Shown here: piece by piece, positions 2,352 to 62,245 of the stretch
Layout: the number at the start of each line of letters is the position of its first letter
Numbering within the stretch: the first letter of the stretch is position 1
Source: Candidatus Woesearchaeota archaeon
Lineage (GTDB): Archaea; Nanobdellota; Nanobdellia; Woesearchaeales; JAWBMQ01
Assembly: GCA_038825875.1 (NCBI GenBank)
Contig: JAWBOS010000003.1
Coordinates: 1,786-65,785 of the forward strand
Length of the DNA stretch: 64,000 bases
Reading direction: 5' to 3'
The notes under the pieces: generated by a model
What the model saw: the letters and a program-made list of their open reading frames with translations, nothing else
Databases searched by the model: none
What the model was told of the DNA's origin: nothing
Position numbers and translations under genes: made by a program

Positions 2352-4058
2352 ATGAAAAAAGGATCTTTGAAAGGATTTGCTTTTTTGTTTATCTTTCCTT
2401 TAATAGTTTTTTATCCTAATCCTTTTGATGAATCGAATGAGGGATTTTTTGTTTTAGCTCCAGAAAATATGAATCTTAGTGTAACTGTTGTTGATTTGAG
2501 AAATAATAACACAAAAAATTTATCAATCAGATCAGAGGATTTATATTCTACAAATATTGGAATCTTGAGATCTTTGAGTTTTTACGCAGGTTCACTAGTA
2601 AATACAAAAGCAAATTATTCTATAATTCTTTTCTATAATGATTCGAACTATGAATCTTTTATTTCTTATAGTTCGGCAAAAGAAGGTTGTGTTTATCTGT
2701 TTTCAAGTAACAAGTTAAATAGGCAAGAGATTTGTTTTGATAATGATTCTTCAGATCATATCATAAGTACAGTCTTAGAAAGTATTTTTGAGGAATTAAC
2801 CTTACAAATCAATCCTCAAACAGGTTCTGACTACAATATTAATGAGCAAGAGTTTGTTCTAGATGATGTTGAAGAAACTTTTAAAACAAACCCTTCTTTT
2901 GATGTAGAAATTGATGAGGCCTTTTATGAAGATGAATACATAGTATACACAATTGTGAATAAGAATTGTTCACAATCTTTTAAAAAAGAGGTTTTAGGTT
3001 TTGATATTTTTGGGAAGTCTGTGTATAGAAGTTTTTCAGATAGTAAAATTGCTACAAGACGAACATTTAGAATTAGCTTAAAACCAGGCGATTATAGTTT
3101 AATAATTTCCTGTGGTGATGAAAAGATTATAAGAAATTTTAGTGTTATTCCTCAAGGAGATTTATGTGAGAGTATATTTAATGGAATGGTTATTTTGAAT
3201 AATAGCCTTTCATTTCCATTTAAAGCAAATTGTAAATTTAAAATAGTCTGTGTTTATCCTTCTTATTATGAAAAGGATTTAGATATCTCTAAGACTGCTG
3301 TTGTTAAGCAGAGTTCTATTGCGTGCGATGTAATGAAGATTATTTTTAAAGAAAATGTTAGATATTTTTTATCTCAAGAGTTTCTTAGGGAATTAGAGGA
3401 GTTTAGAGAAAACGGCGATTTTTTTAGTACTGCTAGAATAGACATTTTTCTATGGCAAAAATGGGTATTTGGAAATAAAAGCGATACAAAGATCATCAAA
3501 TTTTTGAGTATTTACCCAAGAACATTTGGATATGAATTAGAATTTTTCAATAAGACTAAATTTTCAAATGATTCCTTAGAAATTATTTTTGATGATAAAT
3601 TTCTAATTAATGTATCTAATCAGACATACTTAAACAGAACTGAAAGGTTATTATTTTCTGCAGGAGCCTATGTTTTGAAGAGTCAAAAGAATTCCAAGGA
3701 AAAACCATTTTTACTGTTTGATTATAACTTTTCAGTTGAAGGAATTCAAATTTTTTCCATAAAAATTAACTGTATTTCAACAAACGAGTGTTTAAAAGAA
3801 GACTTTGTTTTTATTAGTGCTGCTACAACAAATATTACTCAGTTAAACAAAAGCTTAAACTTGCAGGAAAATATTTTGGAAATTCGTAACAATAGTGTAG
3901 AAAATGTTTATTATCCAAAAGAGGTAGAAACAATTCTAGAGGACAGTTCTATGAATTCTGAAATAGTTGAAAAAAATAAAAGTAAATCCAGATTTTGGCA
4001 AAGAATAAGTGAATTTTTCAGGAGAGTTCAAGGGTTATTTATAAAGAATCCAAAATAG
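2352..4058 (+). CDS. Secreted or surface protein with an N-terminal signal/anchor and many N-glycosylation sequons.
   Basis: 568 aa. The N-terminus MKKGSLKGFAFLFIFPLIVFYP is hydrophobic. More than 20 N-x-S/T sequons are present (NLS, NNT, NYS, NDS, NKS, NQT, NRT, NIT, NNS...). No catalytic motif recognised. Confidence 0.55.
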   Translation: MKKGSLKGFAFLFIFPLIVFYPNPFDESNEGFFVLAPENMNLSVTVVDLRNNNTKNLSIRSEDLYSTNIGILRSLSFYAGSLVNTKANYSIILFYNDSNYESFISYSSAKEGCVYLFSSNKLNRQEICFDNDSSDHIISTVLESIFEELTLQINPQTGSDYNINEQEFVLDDVEETFKTNPSFDVEIDEAFYEDEYIVYTIVNKNCSQSFKKEVLGFDIFGKSVYRSFSDSKIATRRTFRISLKPGDYSLIISCGDEKIIRNFSVIPQGDLCESIFNGMVILNNSLSFPFKANCKFKIVCVYPSYYEKDLDISKTAVVKQSSIACDVMKIIFKENVRYFLSQEFLRELEEFRENGDFFSTARIDIFLWQKWVFGNKSDTKIIKFLSIYPRTFGYELEFFNKTKFSNDSLEIIFDDKFLINVSNQTYLNRTERLLFSAGAYVLKSQKNSKEKPFLLFDYNFSVEGIQIFSIKINCISTNECLKEDFVFISAATTNITQLNKSLNLQENILEIRNNSVENVYYPKEVETILEDSSMNSEIVEKNKSKSRFWQRISEFFRRVQGLFIKNPK

Positions 4059-4067
4059 AATTAAGCT

Positions 4068-4622
4068 TTAAGCTTCTTTTCTCGAGAACAAAATCTTTTG
4101 ATTATATCCATATAAACCAATGGATTTCATCTGTTCGTATTGATCTTTGGTTAATGCCAAGTATAGAATATTATATTTGAATTTGTTATACGTTTCTTGG
4201 GCTATGTTCTTTATATATGTTAGATCTATATTTTCTCCTAGCAAGATGAGACTTGCAGAATTTTCCTTTTCCTGACCTTGAAGAATTACTTCTTCCACGT
4301 TAGGATTGTTCTTTACTTGATTCAAGAAAAATTCCAACCCTGAAGGAAGTAGTTTTATTATACTTCTTAGAAATTCTGAAGTTTTGTTTTCAGCAAGTGA
4401 GTAAAGTTTTAGTTTGTTTATTTCTTCTACTTTTACGATTTCCAGGCTCTCTAATTTTTTAAGGATCCTGTGAGTAGAGGAAATGGGTACTTTGCTTTCA
4501 GAGGATATCTCACTCATTCTCATTTTTAGGTTGGTGTTTTTTATAAGGATTTTTAGAATATTGACTATTTTTGGATCTATAAGCTTAATAAGTACTTCTT
4601 CAGGACTGGGAGGACTGGCCAT
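4068..4622 (-). CDS. Winged helix-turn-helix transcriptional regulator
   Basis: 184 aa. The N-terminal segment MSEISSESKVPISSTHRILKKLESLEIVKVEEI has the pattern of an ArsR/TrmB-like HTH recognition helix. The gene is divergent from ftsZ and has a repeat array in the shared intergenic region. Confidence 0.55.
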   Translation of the reverse strand: MASPPSPEEVLIKLIDPKIVNILKILIKNTNLKMRMSEISSESKVPISSTHRILKKLESLEIVKVEEINKLKLYSLAENKTSEFLRSIIKLLPSGLEFFLNQVKNNPNVEEVILQGQEKENSASLILLGENIDLTYIKNIAQETYNKFKYNILYLALTKDQYEQMKSIGLYGYNQKILFSRKEA

Positions 4623-4783: not shown

Positions 4784-5020
4784 CTATTTAAAACTTTAAA
4801 ATTTTTAGTTTTTATGGCTTAAAAATGCAAAATATTTTTTTAGTTTTTAAAATAAAAAAATTTATAAATTGATGTTATATATTAGTTATTTCTGTTTGTG
4901 TTTAATTATAAATAGAAACCTTTATATATTACTTTTTTCTAATACGGAATAACCCTCATTCTGTTATTTGTTGAGGGTACTTATGATTAATATAAAGAAT
5001 AAAAAAATGAGGTGAAAAGA

Positions 5021-6091
5021 ATGAATTTCCTAGTGCAAAATGCAATAAAAACCCAAGAAGCTATGCAAGAGCAAGGTTTGGATGAATTTGATGCCTATAA
5101 GGCAACTATAAAGGTTATAGGATGTGGTGGGGCTGGTAATAATATGGTAAATTGGCTCTACCAAAAAGGAGTATATGGAGCTCAAGTGATTGCTGTCAAT
5201 ACTGATGCTCAACATTTGAAAATTACTGAGGCACATACAAAAATTCTGATTGGTAGGGAATTAACACGCGGTTTGGGATGCGGAGGTTTTCCTGAAAAGG
5301 GTGAAGAAGCAGCTAAGGAAAGTATGAACGAAATTAGAAAAGCATTAGAGGGAGCAGACATGGTATTTGTATGTGCTGGTATGGGAGGAGGAACTGGAAC
5401 AGGTAGTGCTCCTGTTGTGGCAAGAATTGCAAGAGATTTGGGAGCAATTGTTATTGGTACAGTTACAATGCCATTTGATGTGGAGAGAGCAAGAATAGAT
5501 AAGGCAGAAATTGGTTTAAGAAAATTAAGAGAGCACTGCGACACTGTCATAGTAATAGATAATAATAGACTTGTTAAGGTTGCAGGTAATTTGCCAGTAA
5601 AGCAGGCATTTGCCGTAGCAAATGAGATAATAGCTACTATGATTAGAGGTATTGTGGAAACTATAGCAAAGCCCAGTTTGGTTAATCTAGATTTCGCAGA
5701 TGTAAAGGCAATTATGAGTAATGGTGGAGTTGCAGCAATTGGAATAGGAATGTCTAATACCAAAAACAGAGTTGAGGAAGCAGTTCAAGCAGCACTAAGC
5801 AATCCTCTATTGGATATAAATTATGAGGGAGCTACAGGTGCATTAGTTCACGTCGCAGGTGGTCCAGACATGACACTAGAAGAGGTTAATCGTGCAGTTT
5901 CTTTAGTTACTGCCTCCATGAGTCCTGATGCAAATGTGATCTTTGGAGCAAGAATTGATGATGAATTAAAGGGACAACTTATGATTATGACAATAATTAC
6001 AGGAGTCAAGTCTCCTTGGATCCTTGGAAAACCAACGAAAGAGGAAACTAAGGCTGCTTTTAGAGAGGAATTGGGAATTGAGTTGCTGTAA
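5021..6091 (+). CDS. ftsZ: Cell division GTPase FtsZ
   Basis: The tubulin/FtsZ signature GGGTGTG is present (VCAGMGGGTGTGSAPVVA), as are the N-terminal GCGGAGNN GTP-binding loop and NxDxxxL motifs. The ORF track begins at a GTG at 5012. The ATG at 5021, with GAGGTGA 5 nt upstream, is the more plausible start. Confidence 0.92.
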   Translation: MNFLVQNAIKTQEAMQEQGLDEFDAYKATIKVIGCGGAGNNMVNWLYQKGVYGAQVIAVNTDAQHLKITEAHTKILIGRELTRGLGCGGFPEKGEEAAKESMNEIRKALEGADMVFVCAGMGGGTGTGSAPVVARIARDLGAIVIGTVTMPFDVERARIDKAEIGLRKLREHCDTVIVIDNNRLVKVAGNLPVKQAFAVANEIIATMIRGIVETIAKPSLVNLDFADVKAIMSNGGVAAIGIGMSNTKNRVEEAVQAALSNPLLDINYEGATGALVHVAGGPDMTLEEVNRAVSLVTASMSPDANVIFGARIDDELKGQLMIMTIITGVKSPWILGKPTKEETKAAFREELGIELL

Positions 6092-6179
6092 AATTAACTT
6101 TTTTTTAATTTCTTGTTTTTTTATTGTCATATTCTTTTTCTAGTGTTTTGTTCAGAATTTTTTTCTTAAACTAACTTTT

Positions 6180-6349
6180 GTCATTAAAAAAAAGACGAAG
6201 TGAATTTTGAATAAGAAAGTCAAGCCAAGCAAAAAGAAAAGCTAAGCAAATCTTAACATAAGTCAAATAGAAAAGTAGAAGAAAAAAGTTAAGGTAAAAG
6301 CCAAGCGAAAAGAACTCACAAAAAAACCTAGGAAAAAAGCTAACTAGAT
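6180..6349. repeat. Purine-rich tract (plus strand) with degenerate AAGC(C/T)AAGC repeats, lying between ftsZ and the foreign-composition ORFs.
   Basis: The plus strand is almost entirely A/G (gtcaagccaagcaaaaagaaaagctaagcaaatc ... aaaagccaagcgaaaagaac ... aaaaaagctaactag). The complementary T-rich strand would serve as a transcription stop for the minus-strand island genes. Confidence 0.4.
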
Positions 6350-7273
6350 TTACTTAGCATATCTGATCTCTCGATCAAGCCAACATGCATCCTCTCGATG
6401 ATAATCTATCAATCCATGCTCATCTAAATCTTTCATGAACTTGTCGTAAAACTCGGGCTTCCATATAGCTTCCTTCCATGCCCTGTCTAACCCTTCATAC
6501 CCCAATAACATCTGCGGTGTCTCTAACAAATCTGGCCTCCTACGATAGATGTTCTTTAACTTCTCTAGGTACTTCAAATAATACTCCTCTGCTGAAAACC
6601 AAAAACCTAACTCATGAAACACATTCATATCTAGCTTTAAGTTCTTATATTTCCTAACTCTCTCACTATACCCTGCTTGCGTGAATATCATGTTCATTGT
6701 CTTTATCATCTGCTCCAAAAATGCTGATTCCGCATCCGTATAATAACCTCTAACCTTGATCTCTGGATCCTGATTGTTCAACATCTTGTAAAATGGTGAA
6801 TCAAACTTGTCTAAATACTCCAATATCTTGTCCATCATATGATTGATAATTATATTCTGCGATGCTATGATATATTTCATCCCTCTTAATCTGTCCCTAT
6901 CATAGTACTTAGAAAAAATATAATCCCATAAGTAACCATTTATCGCATCATTTATACCTGGATATTTCTTCTCCAACTCCTGATAATAGTTATTTAATAC
7001 CTTGGGATCTAAACCTAGAGAACCAAAATTCCCCTTAACTATCTCCACTGCCTCCTTCTCTGTCTTGAAAAACTGCTGCCCTGACCACATATCATATGCC
7101 CTCAATCTCCATGGTGTAACAAAATTTAAACCATCCAATATTCCACTCAAATAACTCGCTGGATTTGTGTATATTATTGGATTATTCCTTTGATTTTTGT
7201 CAAAAACAATGTCATACCATCTCATACTATATATGTTTCCAGATGGTGCAAGTCGATTTAGATGATAAACCAA
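6350..7273 (-). CDS. Hypothetical aromatic-rich protein of foreign composition (downstream ORF of the island pair)
   Basis: 307 aa. It is W/Y/R/D-rich (WRLRAYDMWSGQQFF, GYLWDYIFSKYY, GFWFSAEEYYLKYL, WKEAIWKPEFY). Local GC is ~38% against ~28% for flanking genes, and codons are G/C-ending, unlike the rest of the window. No family recognised. Confidence 0.5.
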   Translation of the reverse strand: MVYHLNRLAPSGNIYSMRWYDIVFDKNQRNNPIIYTNPASYLSGILDGLNFVTPWRLRAYDMWSGQQFFKTEKEAVEIVKGNFGSLGLDPKVLNNYYQELEKKYPGINDAINGYLWDYIFSKYYDRDRLRGMKYIIASQNIIINHMMDKILEYLDKFDSPFYKMLNNQDPEIKVRGYYTDAESAFLEQMIKTMNMIFTQAGYSERVRKYKNLKLDMNVFHELGFWFSAEEYYLKYLEKLKNIYRRRPDLLETPQMLLGYEGLDRAWKEAIWKPEFYDKFMKDLDEHGLIDYHREDACWLDREIRYAK

Positions 7274-7287
7274 TTCAGGATTTATAA

Positions 7288-8157
7288 TTATTGAATATTT
7301 AGAAATCTCTCGAATCCTTGAAAACAGTGAACCTGAATATGGTCTGCAAACATAGTATTTCCTAATACTCTTAAAAATGGATGCTTGTAGGATGTAAGTA
7401 AATAATAATACACTACATTATCATTAACCCTTGTTAATAATTTCACACTATTGTATATCTGTTGAATCAAATCATCTCTATCCTTTAACACCAATCTACC
7501 ATTTCTCTCTATCCTCGGCCTGTATTGAAGACTCTTATCATCTAACCAATCCTCAAATACTATTGAATTTATTACCTCTACCCTAAAATTCTTCCTCAAT
7601 CTTGCTATTAAATCTTCCCTATCTATCCTCTCTGGCTGCCTATCTACCTCTTGTATGTATATCATCGGATCCAACTCCATCACTACATATAACCCTGCTG
7701 TCTCAAAATATGGCTTCTTACTCGGTATCTCTACTGCCTTGTACTTAGCTCCTTCATCTACATAACCTCCTGCCAACCTCTGCGATTTACCTAGAAAATG
7801 TAAATGATATGGAAATGTATGAGCTCCATCACATCTATCCCACCACCCTGGCTTTTGAGGAACTTCTCCCTTCCACACACTAGCTGCAAAATATTCATCT
7901 GACAAAATTCTTTTATATCTTCTTATATCATCTTTTAAATATGAGTAATCTATTTGATTTGCTAACACTATACTCTCTAGGGTATTGGTATGTTGCTTTT
8001 CCTTAATCTCTACTCTTATCTCATTGCCTCTTTCTAATGGTCTATCTTTAATTCTATCTACTATTGCTTCTTGGGTTATGCCTAATAATGTAGGTAATAA
8101 CGACACTCCAACTACAAGATTCTTTAAGCCTTTCTCTAATCTTACCATTTTATCCAC
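7288..8157 (-). CDS. Hypothetical protein of foreign composition (upstream ORF of the island pair). May be the N-terminal part of a single frameshift-split gene with 6350..7273.
   Basis: 289 aa, containing WWDRCDGAHTFPYHLHFLG. It has the same atypical composition as the adjacent ORF. The two ORFs are co-directional and separated by 14 nt in different frames. Confidence 0.5.
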   Translation of the reverse strand: MDKMVRLEKGLKNLVVGVSLLPTLLGITQEAIVDRIKDRPLERGNEIRVEIKEKQHTNTLESIVLANQIDYSYLKDDIRRYKRILSDEYFAASVWKGEVPQKPGWWDRCDGAHTFPYHLHFLGKSQRLAGGYVDEGAKYKAVEIPSKKPYFETAGLYVVMELDPMIYIQEVDRQPERIDREDLIARLRKNFRVEVINSIVFEDWLDDKSLQYRPRIERNGRLVLKDRDDLIQQIYNSVKLLTRVNDNVVYYYLLTSYKHPFLRVLGNTMFADHIQVHCFQGFERFLNIQ

Positions 8158-8287
8158 TGAAAAGTGAATTGATTTTTATTTTTTGCGATAGATGCTTTAT
8201 TTAATTTTTGTGCAATTTCTAAAATTCTTCCATAAGAAATTATAGAGAATAATTTAAAAATATTGATTTTTTACAAGAAGCACGAAG

Positions 8288-9097
8288 ATGGAAGGAAAAG
8301 AAAGACAGAACATTCATAGAAAAGCTAAATTTATAATGGTTGAAGGAATTGATGGAACAGGAAAAGGATATATTGTAGATACAATAGTTAACTTGTTAAT
8401 GAAGAAGGGTTTGACGGTTTACGATTTGAGAAAAAAGGAGGGGAAATTATCATATTTTCCTCTTTTTGAGGAGTTATGTGAATTTGAGGTTTTTGTTTAT
8501 AAAGAGCCTCCAGATTTTGGAATTGGAAAAGACATTAGATTAGAAATTCTTAGACGTGGTAAAGAGGAATATAATGCTAGAACACATGCCTATGCTTTTT
8601 CAGTTTCTCGGGAAGTTCTTTATAAGAGACTAGTAATTCCTGCATTGAAGAATTTAAAATTGGTTGTAGCAGAGAGAGGCTTTATAAGTTCTATAGTATA
8701 TCAACCATTATTTTCACAATTTCTGAAAGATGATGAAATACTCTCTCCAGATTTTGTGCTTTCCTTGGAAGGAAATAAAATAGCAATACAAAATCCTCCA
8801 AATCTCGTTTTAGTCGCGGATTGTGATGTAAATACAGCACTAGATAGAATTACTGAGAGAGATAGAGATAATAAATCGCTTTTTGAAACCAGAGAAATGC
8901 TTGAAAAATCAAGAGAAATATACTTAGGAAAACAAAAGTTTAAAATCTGGGGAAAAGAACAAACATTAGAACAATTTTTAGCAGAAATAGGAAAAAATGA
9001 GGATTTGCAGTACGTTATTGTGAATGCCAATGACTCTAAAGATGTTGTAAGAGAAAGAGTAGAAAAGATTATCTCAGATTTTTTTCTTAAAAATTGA
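8288..9097 (+). CDS. Thymidylate-kinase-like P-loop nucleotide kinase family protein with a non-canonical Walker A motif.
   Basis: IMVEGIDGTGKGY resembles the Tmk P-loop EGxDGxGKST, but the Ser/Thr is replaced by Gly. VVAERGFISSIVYQP parallels the Tmk DRY...AYQ region. At 269 aa it is longer than a typical Tmk. Confidence 0.45.
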   Translation: MEGKERQNIHRKAKFIMVEGIDGTGKGYIVDTIVNLLMKKGLTVYDLRKKEGKLSYFPLFEELCEFEVFVYKEPPDFGIGKDIRLEILRRGKEEYNARTHAYAFSVSREVLYKRLVIPALKNLKLVVAERGFISSIVYQPLFSQFLKDDEILSPDFVLSLEGNKIAIQNPPNLVLVADCDVNTALDRITERDRDNKSLFETREMLEKSREIYLGKQKFKIWGKEQTLEQFLAEIGKNEDLQYVIVNANDSKDVVRERVEKIISDFFLKN

Positions 9098-9223
9098 ATT
9101 AGTGGAAAATGAAAGATCAAAAATAGAAAAAAGAAATATTTATAAATCCTTCATTAATCCAAATCTTAGTTATCCCTTGCTTGAAGTAGCTATGAAACTG
9201 TATGCAAAAATTATTAAAAATAT

Positions 9224-9295
9224 GCTCCGGTGGTGTAACGGTTAGCATAGAGGCCTGTCGAGCCTCTGACCCGGGTTCAAATCCCGGCCGGAGCG
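9224..9295 (+). tRNA. tRNA-Asp (anticodon GUC)
   Basis: Cloverleaf read by eye. The acceptor stem is GCTCCGG/CCGGAGC. The anticodon stem-loop gaggc-ctGTCga-gcctc gives anticodon GUC. The T-arm is GGGTTCAAATCCC. No CCA is encoded. Confidence 0.85.
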
Positions 9296-9300
9296 CTTTT

Positions 9301-9374
9301 GAGTCCGTAGCTCAGGCTGGTAGAGCACTAGGCTTTTAACCTAGGGGTCGGGGGTTCAAATCCCCTCGGACTCA
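9301..9374 (+). tRNA. tRNA-Lys (anticodon UUU)
   Basis: The acceptor stem is GAGTCCG/CGGACTC. The D-arm is GCTCAGGCTGGTAGAGC. The anticodon stem-loop ctagg-ctTTTaa-cctag gives anticodon UUU. The T-arm is GGGGGTTCAAATCCCC. Confidence 0.85.
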
Positions 9375-9585
9375 TTGAGATATGAATGAGATTAAAAAAA
9401 GGAATAACAAAATGAATGCTTGCTTTGTCAATATTTCACGTCTGTATAAAACCTTCTCAGAATTTAAAATTCATTCACATTTTTACAGAGATCTTGAAAA
9501 AATCCAACTTCGTAATCCTCTAAAATGTTGTAATTTTTAAGTTTATATTCCATAATTTCATATTTTATTTAGAGGTGCTCAGAAA

Positions 9586-9990
9586 ATGAAAATTAAAAAG
9601 AAGGAAAAAAAGACTTCTAAATCTGAAATAAAAGATAAAGCAGAAAAAAAAGTTGTTCAAAAAAAGGAGAAAAAGAGAGAGTCTAAAAAAGAAACGCAAG
9701 TAAAGAAAGAGGTGAAATCTAAGAAATCAAAGAGTGAAAAGAAAGAAGAGTCTACGAGGACCATAGAAATTTGGAAACATCAATTAGTTCCTCAGCATAT
9801 TTTGTTAACTCCTGAAGAAATTCAGAAATTGTTTGAAGAGTATAATATAACTTTTGATAATTTGCCAAAGATAAAGGTTCATGATCCAGCAATAAAGCAC
9901 CTTAATGCAAAGCCAGGAGATGTTGTTAAGATCATTCGAAAATCAAAGATTGCAGGTGAGTGTGAATATTATAGGGGTGTGGTCGAATGA
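9586..9990 (+). CDS. rpoH: DNA-directed RNA polymerase subunit H (Rpo5) with an unusual ~60-aa lysine-rich N-terminal extension.
   Basis: The C-terminal 70 aa (HQLVPQHILLTPEEIQKLFEEYNITFDNLPKIKVHDPAIKHLNAKPGDVVKIIRKSKIAGECEYYRGVV) matches the RpoH/Rpb5 core. The gene sits at the conserved position upstream of rpoB. The N-terminus MKIKKKEKKTSKSEIKDKAEKK... is K/E-rich low complexity. Confidence 0.85.
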   Translation: MKIKKKEKKTSKSEIKDKAEKKVVQKKEKKRESKKETQVKKEVKSKKSKSEKKEESTRTIEIWKHQLVPQHILLTPEEIQKLFEEYNITFDNLPKIKVHDPAIKHLNAKPGDVVKIIRKSKIAGECEYYRGVVE

Positions 9991-11549
9991 AATCGCGCAT
10001 CTTAATGAAAAAATATTTTGAAAAGAACTCAATGATTCAATCAATAATTGATTCTTTTAATGATTTTGTTGATTTTGGAATGCAACAAGTTGTAGATGAA
10101 ATACACGAAATAGAACCAACAATAATTCCAGCAAATTTAGAGGAATACAAGATAAAGTTGGGAAAAATAAGGATTGGAGAACCCATAATTACAGAAGCAG
10201 ATGGAAGTATAAGAGAGTTATATCCTTATGAAGCACGCATCCGAGAAATAACCTATGCTTCTCCAATATATCTGGAGTTCATTCCAATAATTAATCAAAT
10301 TTTACAGAAACCTATAGAGGTTAAGATAGGAATGTTACCTATTATGGTTAAGTCAAAGTATTGTAGATTGTATAATCTCAAACCGGAGGAATTAATTGAG
10401 CTGGGTGAAGATCCTGATGATGTTGGGGGTTATTTTATTATTAATGGTTCTGAAAAAGTTATTATAAACATAGAGGATCTTGCACCAAATCAGTTTTTGG
10501 TAAATAAGGATCCAGTTACAGGTTCATATTTTGGGAAAATTTTTTCAGAGAATGGGGCATATAGAATTCCTCTAAGTATTGAACAGAGAAATGATCTTAT
10601 ATTTTATGTTACCTTTACAAGAGTAAAAAGAATTCCTGTGGTTGTCCTTTTGAAGGCTTTGGGTTTAGAAAAGGATTCTGAGATCATGGAAGCAATAAAT
10701 CCAACACCAGAAGGTTCAAATCTAGTTTTTATTAATCTGTACGAATACGCAGAGATTAAGAATTCCTTTGAAGCAAAAGATTACATATCAAAAATTTTAG
10801 GAATGACTCATCCTGTAGAAATAAGAATTCCGAGAATTGAGCAGATACTTGATCAATTCTTGCTTCCACATTTAGGTGTTACCGCTGAAGAAAGAAAGTT
10901 AAAGGCATATAACTTGGCAAGATATGTTTCAAAACTTATTAAAGTGTCAACTGGTGTGTTGCCAGAGGACGATAGAGATCATTATATGAATAAGAGAGTA
11001 AAAACTGCCGGTGAGAGTTTGATGGATTTGTTTAGGTATAACTTTAGAATTTTGGTTAAAGATATACTTTATAATTTTCAGAGAATTGTTAAGAGAGGAA
11101 AATTGCCTCCTCTAAATACAGTAGTTAGAGATAAATTGTTTACAAGTAGATTCTATTCAGCAATGGCTACAGGAAATTGGGTTGGAGAGAGAACTGGAGT
11201 TTGTCAAAGATTTATGCATTGGAGTTATATTGAAACTCTTTCACATTTGCAAAGGGTTTCATCATTACTTGATCCGAATCAGGAAAATTTCAAAGCAAGA
11301 GCATTGCATCCAACACATTTTGGAAGATTGTGCGCGATTGAAACGCCAGAAGGAAAGAATGTGGGATTGAGGAAAAATTTAGCTCTTATGTCAAGTATTA
11401 GTAGATATTACGATGAATCAAAGATTTATGAAGTGTTGCAAAGTTTTGGTCTTAAACTACTTGATCCAAGTATAAAATCATCACTTAAGAAGATGCAAGG
11501 TATAGTTAAGATTACTGATATGTCCGAGAGTAAAAAAGAATCCTCTTAA
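9987..11549 (+). CDS. rpoB: DNA-directed RNA polymerase subunit B'' (N-terminal half of split RpoB)
   Basis: 520 aa, overlapping rpoH by 4 nt (ATGA). Conserved RpoB N-terminal blocks are present (GYFIINGSEKVII, the protrusion and lobe regions). The gene lies immediately upstream of the B' part. Confidence 0.9.
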   Translation: MKSRILMKKYFEKNSMIQSIIDSFNDFVDFGMQQVVDEIHEIEPTIIPANLEEYKIKLGKIRIGEPIITEADGSIRELYPYEARIREITYASPIYLEFIPIINQILQKPIEVKIGMLPIMVKSKYCRLYNLKPEELIELGEDPDDVGGYFIINGSEKVIINIEDLAPNQFLVNKDPVTGSYFGKIFSENGAYRIPLSIEQRNDLIFYVTFTRVKRIPVVVLLKALGLEKDSEIMEAINPTPEGSNLVFINLYEYAEIKNSFEAKDYISKILGMTHPVEIRIPRIEQILDQFLLPHLGVTAEERKLKAYNLARYVSKLIKVSTGVLPEDDRDHYMNKRVKTAGESLMDLFRYNFRILVKDILYNFQRIVKRGKLPPLNTVVRDKLFTSRFYSAMATGNWVGERTGVCQRFMHWSYIETLSHLQRVSSLLDPNQENFKARALHPTHFGRLCAIETPEGKNVGLRKNLALMSSISRYYDESKIYEVLQSFGLKLLDPSIKSSLKKMQGIVKITDMSESKKESS

Positions 11550-11590
11550 GAAGGTTTCAAAAATTATGATTAAAATTTTATGGTGATAAA

Positions 11591-13399
11591 ATGACAGATG
11601 TTTGGTTAAACGGAAAATTTATTGGAACAGTTAAAGATCCTAGAGATTTTGTTGAACGTGTGAGAGAAAATAGAAGAAAAAATGTTCTGCCACCAACATT
11701 AAATATTTACTATGATGAAGAAAGCGATGAGATTAAGATTGAGACGAGTAAAGGGAGGTTGCTAAGACCATTAATCGTTGTGAAGAATGGAAAACCATTG
11801 CTAACTGAAGTACATTTAAAAAAATTGATGCAAAATGAGATGACATGGGATGATTTAGTTGCGCAGGGAATTATTGAGTATCTTGATGCATCAGAGGAAG
11901 AAAATGCTTACATAGCAATTTCTGAAGAGGAATTAACTCCAGAACATACACATTTAGAAATTTCACCCCTAGTTATGTTAGGTATAACTTCTTTGTGTGT
12001 ACCTTTTGGAAATTATAATCAAACAGCAAGATATACTATTGGAATAAAATCCTTGAAACAAGGAATGGGATTGTATATGGCCAATTACCATTTGAGAAAC
12101 GAACCAGATGTTTTTATTTTGCACAATCCTGAAGTTCCATTAGTGAAGACTTTTGGAGATGAAGTGATAAATATACAAAAGCATCCAGTTGGGCAGAATT
12201 TAGTAGTTGCGGTAATGACTTACGAAGGATATAACATGGAAGATGCGGTCATACTTAATCTAGGAGCAGTTCAGAGAGGATTGATGAGAGGTACATTTTT
12301 TATGCCTTTTGTTGGTGAGGAGATAAAATATGCAGGTGGCCAAAGTGATAAATTTACAATTCCTAGTAAAGATGTTGTTGGATATATTAGTGAACATGCG
12401 TACAGATTTTTGGAAGAAGATGGTATTGTGAGTCCAGGTATAGAGGTGCAGGAAGGTGATGTGATTATTGGTAAGGTTTCTCCTCCAAGATTTTTGAACG
12501 AACAAGCACAGTATTCTTTTATTGGGGTTACTAAAAGAGATTCTTCAATAAGTTTATCAAAAGGAGAGCAGGGAATTGTCGATACTGTTTTCGTAACAGA
12601 GAGTGAAGAAGGCAATAAAAAAGTAGTGATAAAGGTTAGAGAAAATAAGATTCCAGAGATTGGAGATAAATTTTCATCTAGACATGGACAGAAAGGAGTT
12701 ATTGGAATGCTTATTCCAGAATACGAGATGCCTTTTTCTGCAAGAGGAATTGTACCAGACTTGTTGTTTACTCCTTTTGGTATTCCTTCTCGTATGACTG
12801 TTGCACATCTGTTAGAAATGTTGGGTGGAAAAGTTGGTGCTCTTAAAGGCGAACAGATTGATGGAACTATCTTCGAGAATCAAAGCGAGCAAGAGCTTAG
12901 AGATCAATTGCTGAAACTTGGATTCCGAGATGATGGACTTGAAACGTTTTATGATGGTATAACTGGAAGAATGATCATGGCAAGAATTTATGTGGGAAAT
13001 ATTTTTTATGCCAGATTGAGACAAGTAGTTAGTAATAAAATCCAAGCTCGTGCAAGAGGTAAGGTACAATTGTTAACTAGACAGCCCACAGAAGGAAGAA
13101 GAAAAGGAGGAGGAATTAGATTGGGAGAAATGGAACTTGATGCACTGTTAGGATACGGAGCAGCAATGATTGTGAATGAAAGATATAGTGCAGATTCTAC
13201 AGAAGTGTATGTTTGCGAAAGCTGTGGAAGTTTGGCTTTTTATGATGAAATTAATAAGAGGGTAAGTTGTAAGTATTGCGGAGATTCTTTGAACATATCT
13301 AAAATCTCAATAAGTTATGCGTTTAAATTATTTTTAGAAGAGTTAATGGCCTTGGGAATAAGGCCTAAAATAAATATTAAAACAAAGTACGTGAGTTAG
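11591..13399 (+). CDS. rpoB: DNA-directed RNA polymerase subunit B' (C-terminal half of split RpoB)
   Basis: 602 aa containing SSRHGQKGV, GGIRLGEMELDALLGYGAA and the C-terminal Zn-ribbon CESCGSL...CKYCG. These are the typical RpoB' / Rpb2 C-terminal motifs. Confidence 0.92.
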   Translation: MTDVWLNGKFIGTVKDPRDFVERVRENRRKNVLPPTLNIYYDEESDEIKIETSKGRLLRPLIVVKNGKPLLTEVHLKKLMQNEMTWDDLVAQGIIEYLDASEEENAYIAISEEELTPEHTHLEISPLVMLGITSLCVPFGNYNQTARYTIGIKSLKQGMGLYMANYHLRNEPDVFILHNPEVPLVKTFGDEVINIQKHPVGQNLVVAVMTYEGYNMEDAVILNLGAVQRGLMRGTFFMPFVGEEIKYAGGQSDKFTIPSKDVVGYISEHAYRFLEEDGIVSPGIEVQEGDVIIGKVSPPRFLNEQAQYSFIGVTKRDSSISLSKGEQGIVDTVFVTESEEGNKKVVIKVRENKIPEIGDKFSSRHGQKGVIGMLIPEYEMPFSARGIVPDLLFTPFGIPSRMTVAHLLEMLGGKVGALKGEQIDGTIFENQSEQELRDQLLKLGFRDDGLETFYDGITGRMIMARIYVGNIFYARLRQVVSNKIQARARGKVQLLTRQPTEGRRKGGGIRLGEMELDALLGYGAAMIVNERYSADSTEVYVCESCGSLAFYDEINKRVSCKYCGDSLNISKISISYAFKLFLEELMALGIRPKINIKTKYVS

Positions 13400-13431
13400 A
13401 GTGAAAATATATTTCAAAAAGAGGTGAAAAA

Positions 13432-16128: not shown

Positions 16129-16146
16129 ATCTCAAAAGGTGAAAAT

Positions 16147-17346
16147 ATGTATGAAAAAATAATAGAAAAATATCAAAATTTGTTGCCTAAAAAAATCATT
16201 GATGAAATTATATCCAATTTACCTTCAAATAAAAAGATAAGTGATGAAAAGGTAGAGGAAATCTTTAGGAAAGTATATCAGGATTATGTTGCTACATTAT
16301 TAGAACCAGGGCATAGTATTGGTTTGATCACAGCTCAATCATTTGGAGAACCAGCAACTCAGATGACATTGGATACCTTTCACTTAGCAGGTGTTTCAGA
16401 ATTAAACATATCCGTGGGTTTACCGAGAATTATTGAACTATTTGATGGTAGAAAAACTACAAAAACCCCAATAACTTTCATTTACCTAGTTCCTCCTTAC
16501 AATACTAAGGAATATGTTAGATCAGTAGCTTTAAGATTAAAAGAAACATCCTTGAAAGAAATAATGGATTCTGTAGAATTGGATTTGATGAACTATTCTG
16601 TTAGAGTTAATTTGAATTCAAAAATATTGGCTGATTTGGAAATGACACCTCAAACGGTGCTAGGAAAATTGAAAAAGTACATAAAAAACATAGAAATGGG
16701 TTTAGAAAAGAACATGATTTTTATTAAATTTCCTGAAGATATTGATATTAAGTTTTTATATAAGTTCAAAGAAAATATCAAAAGCTATTTTATTAGTGGA
16801 GTTAAGGGAATTAAATATGTTTTGCCTAAAGAAATAGAATATGAAGGAAAGAAGGAATATATGATTTTAGCAGCTGGTCAAAATCTTGGAGAATTGCTAA
16901 AGTTAGATTTTGTAGATCCATATAGAACGTATTCAAATGATATTTATGAAGTTTATACTTATTTGGGTGTTGAAGCTGCTAGAGAACTTTTGTTTAGAGA
17001 GATTTTAAATGTAGTTTCTGAACAGGGATTGAATATTGATTTGAGGTATATCTCTTTGATAGCTGATGTTCTTATGGCATATGGTGAATACAGAGGAATC
17101 ACAAGATATGGATTGATGAAAAGTAAATCTAGTGTATTGGCAAGAGCCACGTTTGAAACACCAATCACGCATTTTATTGATGCTGCATTGGTTGGAGAAA
17201 AAGAAAGATTAATTGGATTAATGGAAGCTGTTATTGTTGGACAACCGCCAGCAGTAGGAACTACATTATCTCAAGTGTACTTTGTGTCGAATCCTAAATC
17301 AAAGCAAGATGAGAAGAACAAGGAATCAAAGCAGGAAAATAAGTAA
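16147..17346 (+). CDS. rpoA2: DNA-directed RNA polymerase subunit A'' (RpoA2)
   Basis: 399 aa. The trigger-loop region GEPATQMTLDTFHLAGV is present. The gene immediately follows rpoA1 in the conserved order. Confidence 0.9.
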   Translation: MYEKIIEKYQNLLPKKIIDEIISNLPSNKKISDEKVEEIFRKVYQDYVATLLEPGHSIGLITAQSFGEPATQMTLDTFHLAGVSELNISVGLPRIIELFDGRKTTKTPITFIYLVPPYNTKEYVRSVALRLKETSLKEIMDSVELDLMNYSVRVNLNSKILADLEMTPQTVLGKLKKYIKNIEMGLEKNMIFIKFPEDIDIKFLYKFKENIKSYFISGVKGIKYVLPKEIEYEGKKEYMILAAGQNLGELLKLDFVDPYRTYSNDIYEVYTYLGVEAARELLFREILNVVSEQGLNIDLRYISLIADVLMAYGEYRGITRYGLMKSKSSVLARATFETPITHFIDAALVGEKERLIGLMEAVIVGQPPAVGTTLSQVYFVSNPKSKQDEKNKESKQENK

Positions 17347-17431
17347 AATTAAAAAGATTAATAGGATTACAAAATATTTTTAAATGTTGGCTGATTCATA
17401 ACGCTCCAATACATGCTTTTGAGGTGAACAA

Positions 17432-17719
17432 ATGATTAATAAAAGGATGAGCAAAGAAGAATTTGATGAATTCATGTTTAAGGAAAATAGGCAGAATGTT
17501 GTAATAGGTTTCAATAGAGTAAGAAAATTGCTCAAAAATTCAAAGATTAAAATAGTATTTATTTCAAATAATGCTCCTGATTTTATAAGAAAGGATATTG
17601 AGTATTATTCAAAACTTAGCGGAATAGAAGTTGTGGAATTAGATCTTAATAATATTCAACTGGGAAATTACTTTAAAAAAATTTACGGTATAAATGTAAT
17701 AGGGATCTTAACAGGTTGA
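17432..17719 (+). CDS. rpl30e: Ribosomal protein L30e
   Basis: 95 aa. The L30e/L7Ae-fold pattern is present (IKIVFISNNAPDFIRKDIEYYSKLSGIEVVEL...LG). The gene sits at the conserved position between rpoA2 and nusA. Confidence 0.75.
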   Translation: MINKRMSKEEFDEFMFKENRQNVVIGFNRVRKLLKNSKIKIVFISNNAPDFIRKDIEYYSKLSGIEVVELDLNNIQLGNYFKKIYGINVIGILTG

Positions 17720-17814
17720 GTGATTGAAGATTGATAAATTAAAAAGAGAATGTGTTGAATGTGTTATAGATATCAACTCGAAAATTTAAGTTAATTAAAA
17801 AATAGAAAAAATTA

Positions 17815-61953: not shown

Positions 61954-61954
61954 C

Positions 61955-62245
61955 ATGGAAATAAAATCTTCAATCTTGGAAGAGATAGATACTATAAGAA
62001 GAATTGTTGAAGAAAATAAATACAGAAAGATTCTGATTCAATTACCAGATGGTTTAAAATCCTATGCTCCAGTTATCTTTGAAAGAATAAAAGATCTCTG
62101 TGAGGTATTTTTTTATGGCAATTCAAATTTTGGAGGTTGTGATTTGCCAATTTATTTAAAGGATGATTTTGATGCTGTATTTCATTTTTCACATTCCAAA
62201 TATTTCGATACTGCCCAAGAGAATAATTTTTCTAAAAAATCTTAG
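61955..62245 (+). pseudogene. dph2: N-terminal fragment (~95 aa) of the diphthamide synthase Dph2. Truncated, and a likely pseudogene or remnant.
   Basis: KILIQLPDGLKSYAPVIFERIKDLCEVFFYGNSNFGGCDLPIYLKDDFDAVFHFSHSKY aligns with the Dph2 N-terminus (VLIQSPEGL...EVFLHGEINYGACD...CDALIHLGHS). The ORF then terminates. Full-length Dph2 is about 330-350 aa with three Fe-S Cys, and only the first Cys is retained here. Confidence 0.5.

What the first reader, a model, noticed from the sequence alone, without database searches (positions are those of the whole stretch)
6092..8287. A ~2 kb compositionally foreign island with two aromatic-rich ORFs of unknown family, next to ftsZ
ORFs 6350..7273 and 7288..8157 (minus strand) have ~38% GC and G/C-ending codons (AGG, GAG, CAG, AAG), against a ~28% GC A/T-ending background. 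Their proteins are W/Y/R/D-rich (WWDRCDGAHTFPYHLHFLG; WRLRAYDMWSGQQFF; GFWFSAEEYYLKYL). I recognise no family with confidence; they might form an aromatic-rich, carbohydrate-active-enzyme-like fold. The two ORFs are co-directional, 14 nt apart and in different frames. They may be one gene split by a frameshift. The island sits between the ftsZ 3' end and a P-loop kinase gene, with no integrase. It looks like a recent horizontal acquisition of an uncharacterised enzyme.
Basis: seen in the sequence. Interest (0 to 1): 0.72.

Follow-up and report, generated by a model that had tools for sequence, protein, structure and literature searches.

The report
Frameshifted, duplicated orphan gene of Woesearchaeota
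The two "foreign" ORFs are really one roughly 600-codon gene, broken here by a single missing base; it belongs to a tiny protein family seen only in hot-spring Woesearchaeota, occurs in at least two near-identical copies per genome with one hypervariable patch, and probably encodes an exported protein of unknown role.

Summary
**Observation.** It is real but overstated. Total GC is 36.0% and 34.6% against a window mean of 30.3%, and ftsZ next door is 39.4%. The true anomaly is synonymous. Purine-ending codons are 67% G-ending in two blocks of the gene, against 27% in the background (p = 8e-22). Pyrimidine-ending codons are unchanged.

**One gene.** ORF2 and ORF1 are one gene (8148→6350, minus strand, about 599 codons) split by a 1-nt deletion at 7341/7342. 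A paralogue in the same MAG reads straight through the site. Distant homologues are single collinear ORFs of 514–545 aa.

**A repeat.** The gene plus 36 nt upstream and roughly 100–150 nt downstream is a dispersed repeat of about 1.95 kb with at least two copies per genome. Copies are about 98–99% identical except for a 126-nt patch (7813–7938), where both dS and dN are high.

**A mobile family.** It was found only in a few Woesearchaeota MAGs. In two of them an A–B gene pair is 93.5% identical in DNA, while adjacent genes are 28–43% identical in protein.

**Function.** No match in Pfam, NCBIfam, PHROGs, PADLOC, PDB, viral or plasmid collections. Both AlphaFold models were unusable. All members have one N-terminal hydrophobic segment, so an exported or surface protein is the best guess. 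The enzyme/CAZyme idea has no support. Lateral acquisition is plausible but unproven for this locus.

The parts
6350..8148 (-). Reconstructed single gene of about 599 codons, from ATG 8148 (MVRLEK...) to stop 6350. It is intact only if one C is restored at 7341/7342.
   Evidence: Adding one C gives an 1800-nt ORF with no internal stop. Paralogue P0002 reads through the site. It is collinear with single-ORF homologues.
7288..8157 (-). ORF2 as it stands (QW524_01075, annotated from ATG 8148). This is the N-terminal fragment, ending in an out-of-frame tail (HIQVHCFQGFERFLNIQ*).
6350..7273 (-). ORF1 as it stands (QW524_01070, annotated from ATG 7225). This is the C-terminal fragment. Its reading frame is already open from 7417 and overlaps the end of ORF2.
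7341..7342 (-). Frameshift site. The window reads GAC-CA where the intact copy must read GAC-CCA, so one C of a short C run is missing.
   Evidence: The three-frame translation and the tblastn of P0002 stop at 7342.
8074..8127 (-). The only hydrophobic segment of the protein (residues about 8-25, LKNLVVGVSLLPTLLGIT), following basic residues. It is a signal-peptide or N-terminal-anchor-like segment.
   Evidence: Kyte-Doolittle scan: one segment at residues about 8-25 in all five family members and none elsewhere. It aligns across the family.
7813..7938 (-). Hypervariable patch (codons 71-112; at the protein level variation extends to about residue 116).
   Evidence: dS 0.70 and dN 0.23 here, against dS 0.08-0.10 and dN 0-0.01 in the flanks. 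13-15 of 48 residues differ in every pair of copies, against 3-7 of about 200 outside the patch.
8149..8184 (-). 36 nt upstream of the ATG that are shared with the second copy. They contain an A/T-rich TATA-like tract (AAAAAATAAAAAT, 8172-8184). This is the 5' edge of the repeat.
   Evidence: The DNA alignment with L001 becomes identical at 8184 and is unrelated beyond it. The promoter role is inferred.
6200..6349 (-). T-rich 3' tail of the unit, with its approximate 3' edge at 6200-6245. It contains a 17-nt direct repeat at 6222-6238 and 6298-6314.
   Evidence: Independent Logan contigs carrying the identical FtsZ end at window 6230 and 6244. The repeat is family D4. The position of the edge is inferred from where assemblies break.
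7399..7848 (-). G3-rich block 1 (codons 101-250).
   Evidence: G3 of 0.24-0.38 against a background of 0.14.
6353..7174 (-). G3-rich block 2 (codons 326-599). It includes the most conserved family motif, GYSE...LGFWFSAEEYY...G.E.L..W.
   Evidence: G3 of 0.24-0.44. 35% identity to P0007 over 163 residues, E = 3e-18.
5012..6091 (+). ftsZ, a flanking core gene convergent with the unit.
   Evidence: Tubulin and FtsZ_C domains.
8288..9097 (+).
   Evidence: PF02223 and TIGR00041 above their cut-offs.

Best explanation
**What it is.** The 2.2-kb interval holds one gene, not two.

- **Family.** It is a 599-codon member of a very small family restricted to Woesearchaeota. Members are aromatic-rich proteins of about 515-600 aa with a single N-terminal signal or anchor-like hydrophobic segment.
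- **Break.** In this assembly the gene is broken by loss of one C at 7341/7342.
- **Repeat.** The gene, 36 nt of upstream sequence and about 100-150 nt of 3' tail form a dispersed repeat of about 1.95 kb. There are at least two copies per genome: this one between ftsZ and tmk, and another next to the rpS13 operon.
- **Mosaic.** The copies are kept about 98-99% identical, most simply by gene conversion or recombination. The exception is a 126-nt patch that stays deeply divergent between copies and between conspecific genomes.
- **Movement.** The family moves laterally among Woesearchaeota as promoter-plus-gene cassettes without any recognisable mobility gene. It carries its own purine-loaded (G-ending) codon signature.

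**Shown:** the single-gene architecture, copy number, the 5' repeat edge, the mosaic divergence, the codon signature, and the step in divergence between genomes.

**Inferred:**
- The protein is exported or membrane-anchored and acts at the cell surface, with the variable patch as an interaction site. For a DPANN symbiont the partner could be a host cell or a virus.
- The window copy is either a very recent pseudogene or carries an assembly error.
- The 3' edge of the repeat.
For: - **One gene.**
  - P0002 (QW524_02860, same MAG, another contig, 93% identical) continues NTMFAD|PYSGAMFARIHEI, which matches the window's ORF1 frame PYSGSLFSRIREI.
  - Restoring one C gives an 1800-nt ORF without stops.
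  - Homologues of 514-545 aa are single ORFs collinear with ORF2+ORF1.
- **Repeat.**
  - Cluster members are all cut by contig ends (QW524_02860, QXD62_01940, QXD62_02175).
  - A 59-aa fragment (QW524_03865) is 100% identical to the ORF1 C-terminus and lies on a third contig of the same MAG.
  - L002 shows a syntenic copy in a conspecific MAG, 99.3% identical over 10.2 kb and broken at 7950.
  - L001 shows a copy beside rpS13/S4/S11/rpoD.
  - Edges lie at 8184 and at about 6200-6245.
- **Mosaic.** dS and dN by segment and residue differences between copies.
- **Export signal.** One hydrophobic segment at residues about 8-25 in all five members.
- **Context.** In L007 and L089 the family follows a 1,669-1,789-aa Cys-rich ORF with an N-terminal hydrophobic leader.
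- **Lateral movement.** The A-B pair is 93.5% identical in DNA over 2,984 nt between L089 and L007, while the adjacent giant ORF is 28% and the ~640-aa ORF 43% identical in protein.
- **Codon signature in three backgrounds**.
  - Window: 0.667 against 0.272, p = 8e-22.
  - L007 A2/B2: 0.41 and 0.36 against 0.225, p = 1e-8.
  - L089 A/B: 0.395 and 0.336 against 0.14-0.20, p = 1e-11.
Against: - **Function is not demonstrated.**
  - No family, motif or fold could be assigned. Both structure models are unusable.
  - No dedicated signal-peptide predictor was available. The hydrophobic core is short (about 14-17 residues) and has no small residues at -1/-3, so cleavage is uncertain.
- **Limited DNA for the mosaic.** Only one DNA comparison across the patch was possible (window against L001). 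Copy B of the window's own MAG is known only as protein.
- **The 3' edge is inferred** from where assemblies break.
- **The frameshift is seen in one assembly only**, and it lies about 13 codons before the point where the paralogue's contig ends. That is inside an assembly-graph branch, so it may be an artefact.
- **L007 A1/B1 lack the codon signature**, so it is not universal in the family.
- **Genome-wide divergence of L007 and L089 was not measured.** The 28-43% figures come from neighbouring genes that may themselves evolve fast.
Confidence: 0.6

Rival explanations
1. Two genuine separate genes, as annotated in GenBank (QW524_01075 and QW524_01070): a small operon encoding an anchored N-terminal protein and a cytoplasmic aromatic-rich partner.
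For: - Both are annotated as separate CDSs.
- ORF1 has possible TTG and ATG starts and no further lesion over 924 nt.
- Its last 59 residues are identical to another copy.
Against: - The paralogue reads through the junction.
- All distant homologues are single collinear ORFs.
- The ORF1 frame is open for 48 codons upstream of its supposed start and overlaps ORF2.
- ORF1 alone would lack the family's N-terminal leader.
Confidence: 0.12
2. The frameshift, and possibly part of the contig path through the repeat, is an assembly or consensus artefact. On this reading the chromosomal copy is intact.
For: - The unit is a repeat of about 1.95 kb that broke the assembly in every other case: all other copies end at contig ends, MAG2 breaks at 7950, and Logan contigs break at 6230/6244.
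- The paralogue's contig ends about 13 codons after the site, so the graph branches there.
- Apart from this one base the ORF is flawless.
Against: - Single-base deletions in a run of only two or three C are not a typical short-read error (own knowledge).
- No independent assembly of this stretch could be retrieved to compare.
Confidence: 0.3
3. The variable patch is the target of a diversity-generating retroelement (DGR), as described for surface proteins of DPANN archaea.
For: - A roughly 45-residue patch varies on a fixed aromatic scaffold (W, EVPQKP, WWDR, GAHTF, HFLGK).
- Three positions show three different residues in three copies.
- DGRs are known in Woesearchaeota and Pacearchaeota (own knowledge: Paul et al. 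2017, Nat Microbiol).
Against: - No reverse transcriptase in any ORF of at least 100 aa in the 64-kb window.
- No template-like repeat of the patch in the window.
- Differences are spread evenly over codon positions (9/9/13), include many synonymous changes (dS 0.70) and runs of four adjacent bases, and are not confined to adenine-type positions.
- The patch is not C-terminal.
Confidence: 0.04
4. A remnant or cargo gene of an unknown virus or plasmid of Woesearchaeota, for example a receptor-binding or exclusion protein deposited at several chromosomal sites.
For: - Atypical codon usage that travels with the gene.
- Several dispersed copies.
- Near-identical A-B pair in genomes with divergent neighbours.
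- 3.3-kb metagenome contigs that look circular.
Against: - No hit in IMG/VR, in INPHARED phages or PLSDB plasmids by tblastn, or in PHROGs.
- No viral or plasmid hallmark gene beside any copy.
- The 'circular' contigs are explained by collapse of the A1-B1-A2-B2 tandem array seen in L007.
- No tRNA or terminal repeats at the edges.
Confidence: 0.12
5. An ordinary vertically inherited host gene. On this reading the codon bias reflects expression level or RNA-level selection rather than foreign origin.
For: - It sits at the same locus in the conspecific MAG.
- Total GC is within the range of neighbouring core genes.
- The bias is purine loading, not a general GC shift. Purine loading is a known feature of thermophile mRNAs (own knowledge: Lao and Forsdyke 2000).
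Against: - Ribosomal-protein, RNA-polymerase and elongation-factor genes in the same window do not show the bias (GC3 0.20-0.25).
- The bias is mosaic within the gene.
- The family is absent from 1.84 billion representative proteins apart from a few MAGs, and from the ftsZ loci of about 50 DPANN relatives.
- There is a step in divergence between L007 and L089.
Confidence: 0.1
6. A carbohydrate-active or other enzyme.
For: Only the richness in W, Y and D, which is common in sugar-binding sites.
Against: - No match to any Pfam, NCBIfam or PDB enzyme family, even with a five-member profile.
- The conserved columns across the family do not resemble a catalytic motif (K, G, V, E, A, Y, P, N, D, F, Q, I, W).
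- The low-confidence models predict the C-terminal half as all-helical, which is weak evidence.
Confidence: 0.04

Closest known systems
Multi-copy variable surface-protein genes maintained by segmental gene conversion (for example Neisseria pilE/pilS, Borrelia vlsE, Anaplasma msp2); comparison from own knowledge
   Same: - Several near-identical copies per genome.
- A short hypervariable segment embedded in conserved sequence.
- Divergence that jumps about 7-fold in dS and more than 20-fold in dN inside the patch.
- A product with an N-terminal export-type leader.
   Different: - Only two copies are documented, and no array of silent cassettes.
- No sequence or domain similarity.
- The organism is archaeal.
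- Whether variation is generated within a cell or merely sampled from population alleles is unknown.
- dN/dS in the patch is about 0.33, so positive selection is not shown.
DGR variable proteins of DPANN archaea (Paul et al. 2017; own knowledge)
   Same: - Lineage: Woesearchaeota.
- Variable residues on a fixed scaffold in a probable surface protein.
   Different: - No RT or template repeat in 64 kb.
- Substitutions are not adenine-type and include many synonymous and third-position changes.
- The patch is near the N-terminus rather than C-terminal.
Strain-variable cell-surface gene islands of archaea (for example Haloquadratum walsbyi and Halorubrum genomic islands; own knowledge)
   Same: - A secreted or surface-type ORFan with atypical composition lying between core genes.
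- No integrase.
- Evidence of exchange between genomes.
   Different: - The unit is a single gene of about 1.95 kb, not a multi-gene island.
- It is duplicated at unrelated loci.
- The compositional signal is strand-specific purine loading rather than a GC shift.
Free-standing homing-endonuclease genes or other single-gene selfish cassettes inserted between essential genes (own knowledge)
   Same: - A promoter-plus-gene unit with sharp edges sitting between core genes (ftsZ/tmk; the rpS13 operon).
- No integrase or transposase.
- Copies at several sites.
   Different: - No LAGLIDADG, GIY-YIG, HNH or any nuclease signal.
- The protein has an export-type leader.
- No demonstration of an empty target site.
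Giant surface proteins of DPANN archaea (for example SPEARE proteins of Nanohaloarchaeota; own knowledge)
   Same: In L007 and L089 the family lies directly downstream of a 1,669-1,789-aa Cys-rich ORF with an N-terminal leader, in a recurring cluster.
   Different: - No sequence similarity between the family and the giant ORFs.
- No giant ORF lies next to either copy in the window's species.

Membership tests
Any curated protein family (Pfam-A, NCBIfam, PHROGs, PADLOC) | A profile match at or near the curated threshold | tested here: not met
   - Both ORFs give 0 families in Pfam and PHROGs.
- The best NCBIfam hits are E = 0.076 and 0.16, far below the cut-offs.
- Five family members give no consistent hit in Pfam or PADLOC.
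Proteins with a solved structure | Sequence or profile similarity to a PDB chain | tested here: not met
   - phmmer best E = 0.089 and 1.1.
- The five-member profile gives best E = 0.075, to interferon alpha-8, which is not meaningful.
Carbohydrate-active enzymes / lectins | A recognisable GH/CBM/lectin domain or fold | tested here: inconclusive
   - No sequence signal.
- The fold could not be assessed because both models have mean pLDDT of 37 and 41.
Sec-type exported or N-terminally anchored proteins | Basic n-region followed by a single hydrophobic h-region at the N-terminus, conserved in homologues | tested here: met
   - Maximum hydropathy (15-residue window) of 1.85-2.10 at residues 8-11 onward in all five members, with no other segment above 1.8.
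- K/R residues precede the segment.
- Cleavage and topology were not testable, because no SignalP or TMHMM was available.
DGR target gene | A nearby reverse transcriptase and a template repeat matching the variable region except at adenines | tested here: not met
   - No RT domain in any ORF of at least 100 aa of the window.
- No repeat of 7813-7938 in the window.
- The rest of the genome was not available.
DGR target gene | Variation confined to adenine-templated positions, typically first and second codon positions of AAY codons | tested here: not met
   31 differences fall at codon positions 1/2/3 as 9/9/13, with mixed base changes and runs of four adjacent differences; dS is 0.70.
IS element / transposon / integrative element | A transposase or integrase gene, terminal inverted repeats, target-site duplication or a tRNA attachment site | tested here: not met
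   - No such gene in the window.
- No terminal repeats pairing the two edges.
- The nearest tRNAs are at 9224-9375, beyond tmk.
Virus or plasmid gene | A homologue on a viral or plasmid sequence, or viral hallmark neighbours | tested here: not met
   - IMG/VR scans with four family members found none.
- tblastn against 50,697 phage and 72,556 plasmid records found none.
- The neighbours are core genes.
Gene-conversion-maintained paralogue pair | Copies at different loci with very low divergence (including synonymous sites) over most of their length, and sharp segments of much older divergence | tested here: met
   - Copies lie at ftsZ-tmk and beside rpS13.
- dS is 0.08-0.10 in the flanks, 0.70 in the patch and 0.34 in codons 1-25.
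- Only one DNA pair was available, and it spans two conspecific MAGs.
Horizontally acquired island at this locus | A close relative with the same flanks but without the insert | tested here: inconclusive
   - The conspecific MAG has the gene at the same site.
- In 80 ftsZ loci from GTDB representatives (FtsZ at most 72% identical), none keeps tmk/rpoH/rpoB next to ftsZ.

The most novel reading that the evidence does not exclude
The unit is a new kind of self-contained, integrase-free gene cassette that spreads among Woesearchaeota genomes. It encodes a hypervariable exported protein used in symbiont-host recognition or virus exclusion. Its patch would be diversified by a dedicated mechanism, either targeted recombination from a pool of alleles or an unrecognised mutagenic system, and its G-for-A third-position signature would be a footprint of that vehicle or mechanism.
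Probability: 0.1. Interest if true: 0.75.

Novelty: new variant of a known kind. Interest (0 to 1): 0.45.

Why it matters
DPANN archaea depend on contact with other cells, yet almost nothing is known about the proteins that mediate that contact. This is an exported, aromatic-rich protein family with four notable properties:

- It is confined to a few hot-spring Woesearchaeota.
- It is kept in several copies.
- It carries a sharply delimited hypervariable patch.
- It appears to be exchanged between genomes as a bare promoter-plus-gene unit.

That makes it a reasonable candidate for such an interaction determinant, and a small, tractable case of gene conversion and lateral cassette exchange in reduced archaeal genomes.

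On the practical side, the GenBank annotation of two hypothetical proteins (QW524_01070 and QW524_01075) is probably one disrupted or mis-assembled gene. The 3.3-kb 'circular' metagenome contigs carrying homologues are assembly collapses, not replicons.

If it turns out to be simply an ORFan pseudogene, the finding is ordinary.

Tried and rejected
**Family and structure searches**
- Pfam, NCBIfam, PHROGs and PADLOC on the ORFs and on five family members: nothing.
- PDB by sequence and by profile: nothing meaningful.
- Word-indexed searches of 5.8 billion proteins with ORF1, ORF2 and a family profile: only self and paralogues.
- Exhaustive phmmer over 1.84 billion representatives: three hits, only one of them a distant relative.
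- AlphaFold2 on the reconstructed 599-aa protein and on the C-terminal half, with the shallow family alignments: mean pLDDT 37 and 41. I ran no fold search, because matches to such models are meaningless.

**Collection scans for related loci**
- GTDB representative genomes with ORF2: none.
- JGI metagenome contigs with the C-terminal alignment and with the full protein: none.
- IMG/VR with four queries: none.
- Phage and plasmid tblastn: none.
- A family HMM against every ORF of at least 100 aa in 1.2 Mb of fetched DPANN loci and the window: only the known members.

**Ideas tested and dropped**
- DGR: rejected on substitution pattern and on the absence of RT and template repeat.
- A small circular replicon, suggested by L003/L004 (16- and 9-nt terminal overlaps, 3,287-bp unit): rejected after L007 showed a chromosomal A1-B1-A2-B2 tandem array.
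- Programmed -1 frameshifting: no X XXY YYZ slippery heptamer at ATGTTTGCAGACCATATT (read directly).
- GC-biased gene conversion as the cause of the codon bias: rejected because only purine-ending codons shift and C-ending is unchanged.
- Class III (pilin-type) signal or lipobox: not evident by eye in the leaders. I did not test this formally.

**Tests that could not be completed**
- Empty-site test by synteny: uninformative, because ftsZ-tmk adjacency is not conserved in any available relative.
- Copy-B DNA of the window's own MAG could not be retrieved.

Full report
**Source and setting.**
- The window comes from a 76-kb contig of a metagenome-assembled genome that NCBI labels Candidatus Woesearchaeota (locus tags QW524_*).
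- The flanks are core archaeal genes. On one side lie a TrmB-like regulator and ftsZ. On the other lie thymidylate kinase, two tRNAs, rpoH, split rpoB and rpoA.
- Related assemblies sit in the same GenBank accession block as MAGs whose isolate names are Tengchong hot-spring sample codes. A geothermal origin is therefore likely, but I did not verify it.

- The two ORFs, their spacing, their frames and the quoted peptides are as described.
- The composition claim needs correcting.
  - Total GC is 36.0% and 34.6% against 30.3% for the window.
  - ftsZ (39.4%) and the RNA-polymerase genes (35%) are as high or higher, because their first and second codon positions are GC-rich.
- What stands out is synonymous usage.
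  - ORF1 has the highest GC3 of the 54 ORFs (0.416; mean 0.234, sd 0.037). ORF2 is only mildly raised (0.290).
  - The shift is confined to purine-ending codons. In ORF1, AAG/GAG/CAG make up 80/86/78%, against 31/22/25% in the background.
  - Four-fold families move from T-ending to A- or G-ending codons. C-ending of pyrimidine codons does not change.
- The bias is mosaic along the reconstructed gene.
  - Codons 1-100 and 251-325 look like the host. Codons 101-250 and 326-599 are G3-rich.
  - In the rich blocks, 94 of 141 two-fold purine codons end in G, against 1603 of 5889 in the background (p = 7.6e-22). In the poor blocks the figure is 15 of 53 (p = 0.88).
- The anomaly is therefore real, far beyond chance, strand-specific and patchy. 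It is purine loading of the coding strand, not a general rise in GC.

**One gene, not two.**
- ORF2 has a 93%-identical paralogue, P0002 (QW524_02860), on another contig of the same MAG.
  - After the shared ...LGNTMFAD it continues PYSGAMFARIHEI.
  - In the window those residues are encoded in the ORF1 frame, immediately after GAC 7344-7342, as PYSGSLFSRIREI.
  - That frame then runs without a stop through ...ELVYHLNRLAPSGNIYSMRWYD... into ORF1.
- The ORF1 frame is open from 7417, 48 codons before its nominal start.
- Restoring one C (GACCA to GACCCA) yields an 1800-nt ORF of 599 codons with no internal stop.
- Independent support comes from distant homologues. P0007 is 35% identical over 163 residues (pairwise BLASTP E = 3e-18; phmmer E = 9e-11 for the whole library). 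The four paralogues in locus L007 are single ORFs of 514-545 aa that align collinearly with ORF2+ORF1 from the N-terminal leader to the C-terminal GYSE...GFWF.AEE.Y...G.E.L..W block.
- The frameshift lies in a segment (residues about 255-335) that the homologues lack and that has host-like codons.
- I found no slippery heptamer at the site.
- Whether the missing base is a real, very recent mutation or an assembly error cannot be decided here.
  - The site lies about 13 codons before the end of the paralogue's contig, where the assembly graph branches.
  - No independent assembly of this stretch could be retrieved.

**A dispersed repeat.**
- Every other member of the ORF2 cluster is cut by a contig end.
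  - QW524_02860 (282 aa) is in the same MAG.
  - QXD62_01940 (240 aa) and QXD62_02175 (66 aa) are in a second MAG.
- A 59-aa fragment, QW524_03865, is identical to the C-terminus of ORF1 and lies at the end of a third contig of the window's MAG. The C-terminal half is therefore duplicated too.
- The second MAG is conspecific. Its contig L002 is 99.3% identical to window 7950-18148 and ends inside the gene at the same tmk-side locus.
- Its other copy (L001) sits beside the rpS13-rpS4-rpS11-rpoD operon, an unrelated locus.
- Edges of the repeat:
  - DNA identity between the window and L001 begins at window 8184, 36 nt upstream of the ATG. It starts with an A/T-rich tract (AAAAAATAAAAAT) placed where an archaeal TATA box for a short-leader transcript would lie, which is an inference.
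  - On the other side, two independent Logan assemblies that encode the identical FtsZ end at window 6230 and 6244, in the T-rich tail after the stop codon.
- The repeated unit is thus about 1.95 kb: promoter-proximal sequence, gene and 3' tail.
- There are no terminal repeats pairing its edges, no adjacent tRNA, and no mobility gene anywhere in the window.

**A hypervariable patch.**
- Between the window copy and L001, divergence is very uneven.

| Segment | dS | dN |
|---|---|---|
| Codons 1-25 (leader) | 0.34 | 0.11 |
| Codons 26-70 | 0.08 | 0 |
| Codons 71-112 (window 7813-7938) | 0.70 | 0.23 |
| Codons 113-240 | 0.10 | 0.01 |

- At the protein level, each pair among the three long copies differs at 13-15 of 48 patch residues, but at only 3-7 of about 200 residues elsewhere.
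  - This includes the two copy-B alleles from MAGs that are 99.3% identical. They share the copy-B marker residues L13, I18, K185, F207 and C232.
- The variable residues are interleaved with a fixed aromatic scaffold (W, EVPQKP, WWDR, GAHTF, HFLGK).
- Synonymous divergence is raised as much as non-synonymous, and differences are spread over all codon positions. The pattern is that of a recombination or gene-conversion mosaic that preserves old alleles in the patch.
- It is not demonstrable positive selection (dN/dS is about 0.33), and it is not adenine-directed DGR mutagenesis.

**The wider family and its mobility.**
- Exhaustive phmmer over 1.84 billion representative proteins found only the paralogue, the 59-aa fragment and P0007.
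- P0007 and its near-identical cluster mates lie in other Woesearchaeota MAGs.
- L007 carries a tandem array A1(545)-B1(515)-A2(524)-B2(514) directly after a 1,789-aa Cys-rich ORF with an N-terminal leader and a ~655-aa ORF.
- L089 has the same order: 629 aa, 1,669 aa, A, B.
- Two 3.3-kb metagenome contigs (L003, L004) appear circular, with 16- and 9-nt end overlaps that both imply a 3,287-bp unit. They are explained by collapse of the A-B-A-B array and are not replicons.
- L089's A-B pair is 93.5% identical in DNA to L007's A2-B2 over 2,984 nt. The adjacent giant ORFs are only 28% identical in protein and the ~640-aa ORFs 43%.
- In both genomes this pair carries the G-ending purine-codon signature against its neighbours.
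  - L007 A2/B2: 0.41 and 0.36 against 0.225, p = 1e-8.
  - L089 A/B: 0.395 and 0.336 against 0.14-0.20, p = 1e-11.
  - L007's older-looking A1-B1 pair does not carry it (0.25, p = 0.40).
- The simplest reading is recent lateral exchange of the gene pair among Woesearchaeota, with gradual loss of the signature after arrival.
- The caveat is that I could not measure genome-wide divergence between those MAGs.

**What the protein may do.**
- Nothing in Pfam, NCBIfam, PHROGs, PADLOC or the PDB resembles it, even with five members.
- Both AlphaFold2 attempts failed (pLDDT 37 and 41), so I drew no fold inference and ran no fold search.
- The one consistent feature is a single hydrophobic segment at residues about 8-25, preceded by basic residues, in all five members. 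This is the layout of a Sec signal peptide or N-terminal anchor.
- Three further observations point the same way: the association with giant leader-bearing Cys-rich ORFs in two genomes, the multi-copy state, and the allelic patch.
- My best inference is an exported or surface-anchored protein involved in interactions at the cell surface, with the patch as the contact site.
- I give this about a 50% chance of being right at the level of 'extracytoplasmic', and much less for any specific partner.
- The CAZyme idea has no support.

**Was it horizontally acquired here?**
- Codon usage is clearly distinguishable from host genes, which favours acquisition.
- The only genome sharing the locus is conspecific and also has the gene there.
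- No available relative (FtsZ at most 72% identical) keeps ftsZ next to tmk or carries a family member near ftsZ. No empty site exists to compare with.
- Acquisition is therefore plausible, and supported by the family's behaviour elsewhere, but it is not demonstrated for this locus.

**Verdict.**
- The finding is a real feature whose anatomy differs from the first description. It is a single, disrupted copy of a duplicated cassette-like orphan gene with a hypervariable patch and a strand-specific codon signature.
- It behaves like known multi-copy variable surface-protein genes and strain-variable surface islands. However, it belongs to no known family, and it moves without any recognisable mobility function.
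- Hypothetical lineage-specific proteins are common in DPANN genomes and the function remains unknown, so interest is moderate (0.45).

Noticed in passing
window 44623-46473 (-): A 616-aa long RelA/SpoT homologue with HD_4, RelA_SpoT and TGS domains. It is a bacterial-type (p)ppGpp synthetase/hydrolase, which is unusual in archaea.
   Followed up: no
window 48043-49383 (-): A 446-aa protein with an SLT lytic transglycosylase domain, a murein-degrading type of enzyme, in a DPANN archaeon. It may act on bacterial cell walls.
   Followed up: no
window 2352-4058 (+): A 568-aa ORF with an N-terminal hydrophobic leader, many N-x-S/T sequons and no Pfam match. It is another probable surface protein, two genes from the finding. 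It is not homologous to the family or to the giant ORFs of L007/L089.
   Followed up: partly
window 4068-4622 (-): The TrmB-like winged-helix regulator upstream of ftsZ has the most atypical synonymous codon usage in the window (z = -3.5). Even so, a homologue lies upstream of ftsZ in several DPANN relatives.
   Followed up: partly
window 61928-62245 and 62342-63325 (+): A 105-aa ORF matching only the N-terminal part of the diphthamide-synthesis domain is followed by a 327-aa ORF with no hit at E = 1e-5. This may be a split or frameshifted dph2.
   Followed up: no
window 59899-60570 (+), repeats at 60237-60290 and 60333-60386: A 223-aa ORF with very high second-position GC (0.48) and an internal 54-nt direct repeat 96 nt apart. 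No Pfam match.
   Followed up: no
window 6222-6238 and 6298-6314: A 17-nt direct repeat (AAGCCAAGC[A/G]AAAAGAA, 94% identical, 76 nt apart) in the ftsZ-side intergenic tail. One copy coincides with the point where independent assemblies break.
   Followed up: partly
L003 1-3303 and L004 1-3296: These 3.3-kb metagenome contigs have 16- and 9-nt terminal overlaps that imply a 3,287-bp circle holding only two paralogous genes. They are explained as a collapsed A-B-A-B tandem array.
   Followed up: yes
L007 1191-6560 and L089 4911-9920: Giant ORFs of 1,789 and 1,669 aa, Cys-rich, with an N-terminal leader and no Pfam domain. They are only 28% identical to each other, and each is preceded by a ~630-655-aa ORF (43% identical). 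Together they form a recurring cluster with the A-B family genes.
   Followed up: partly
window 50725-51552 (+): A class II (bacterial-type) fructose-bisphosphate aldolase. Together with the RSH and SLT genes, it suggests substantial bacterial-derived gene content in this Woesearchaeote.
   Followed up: no
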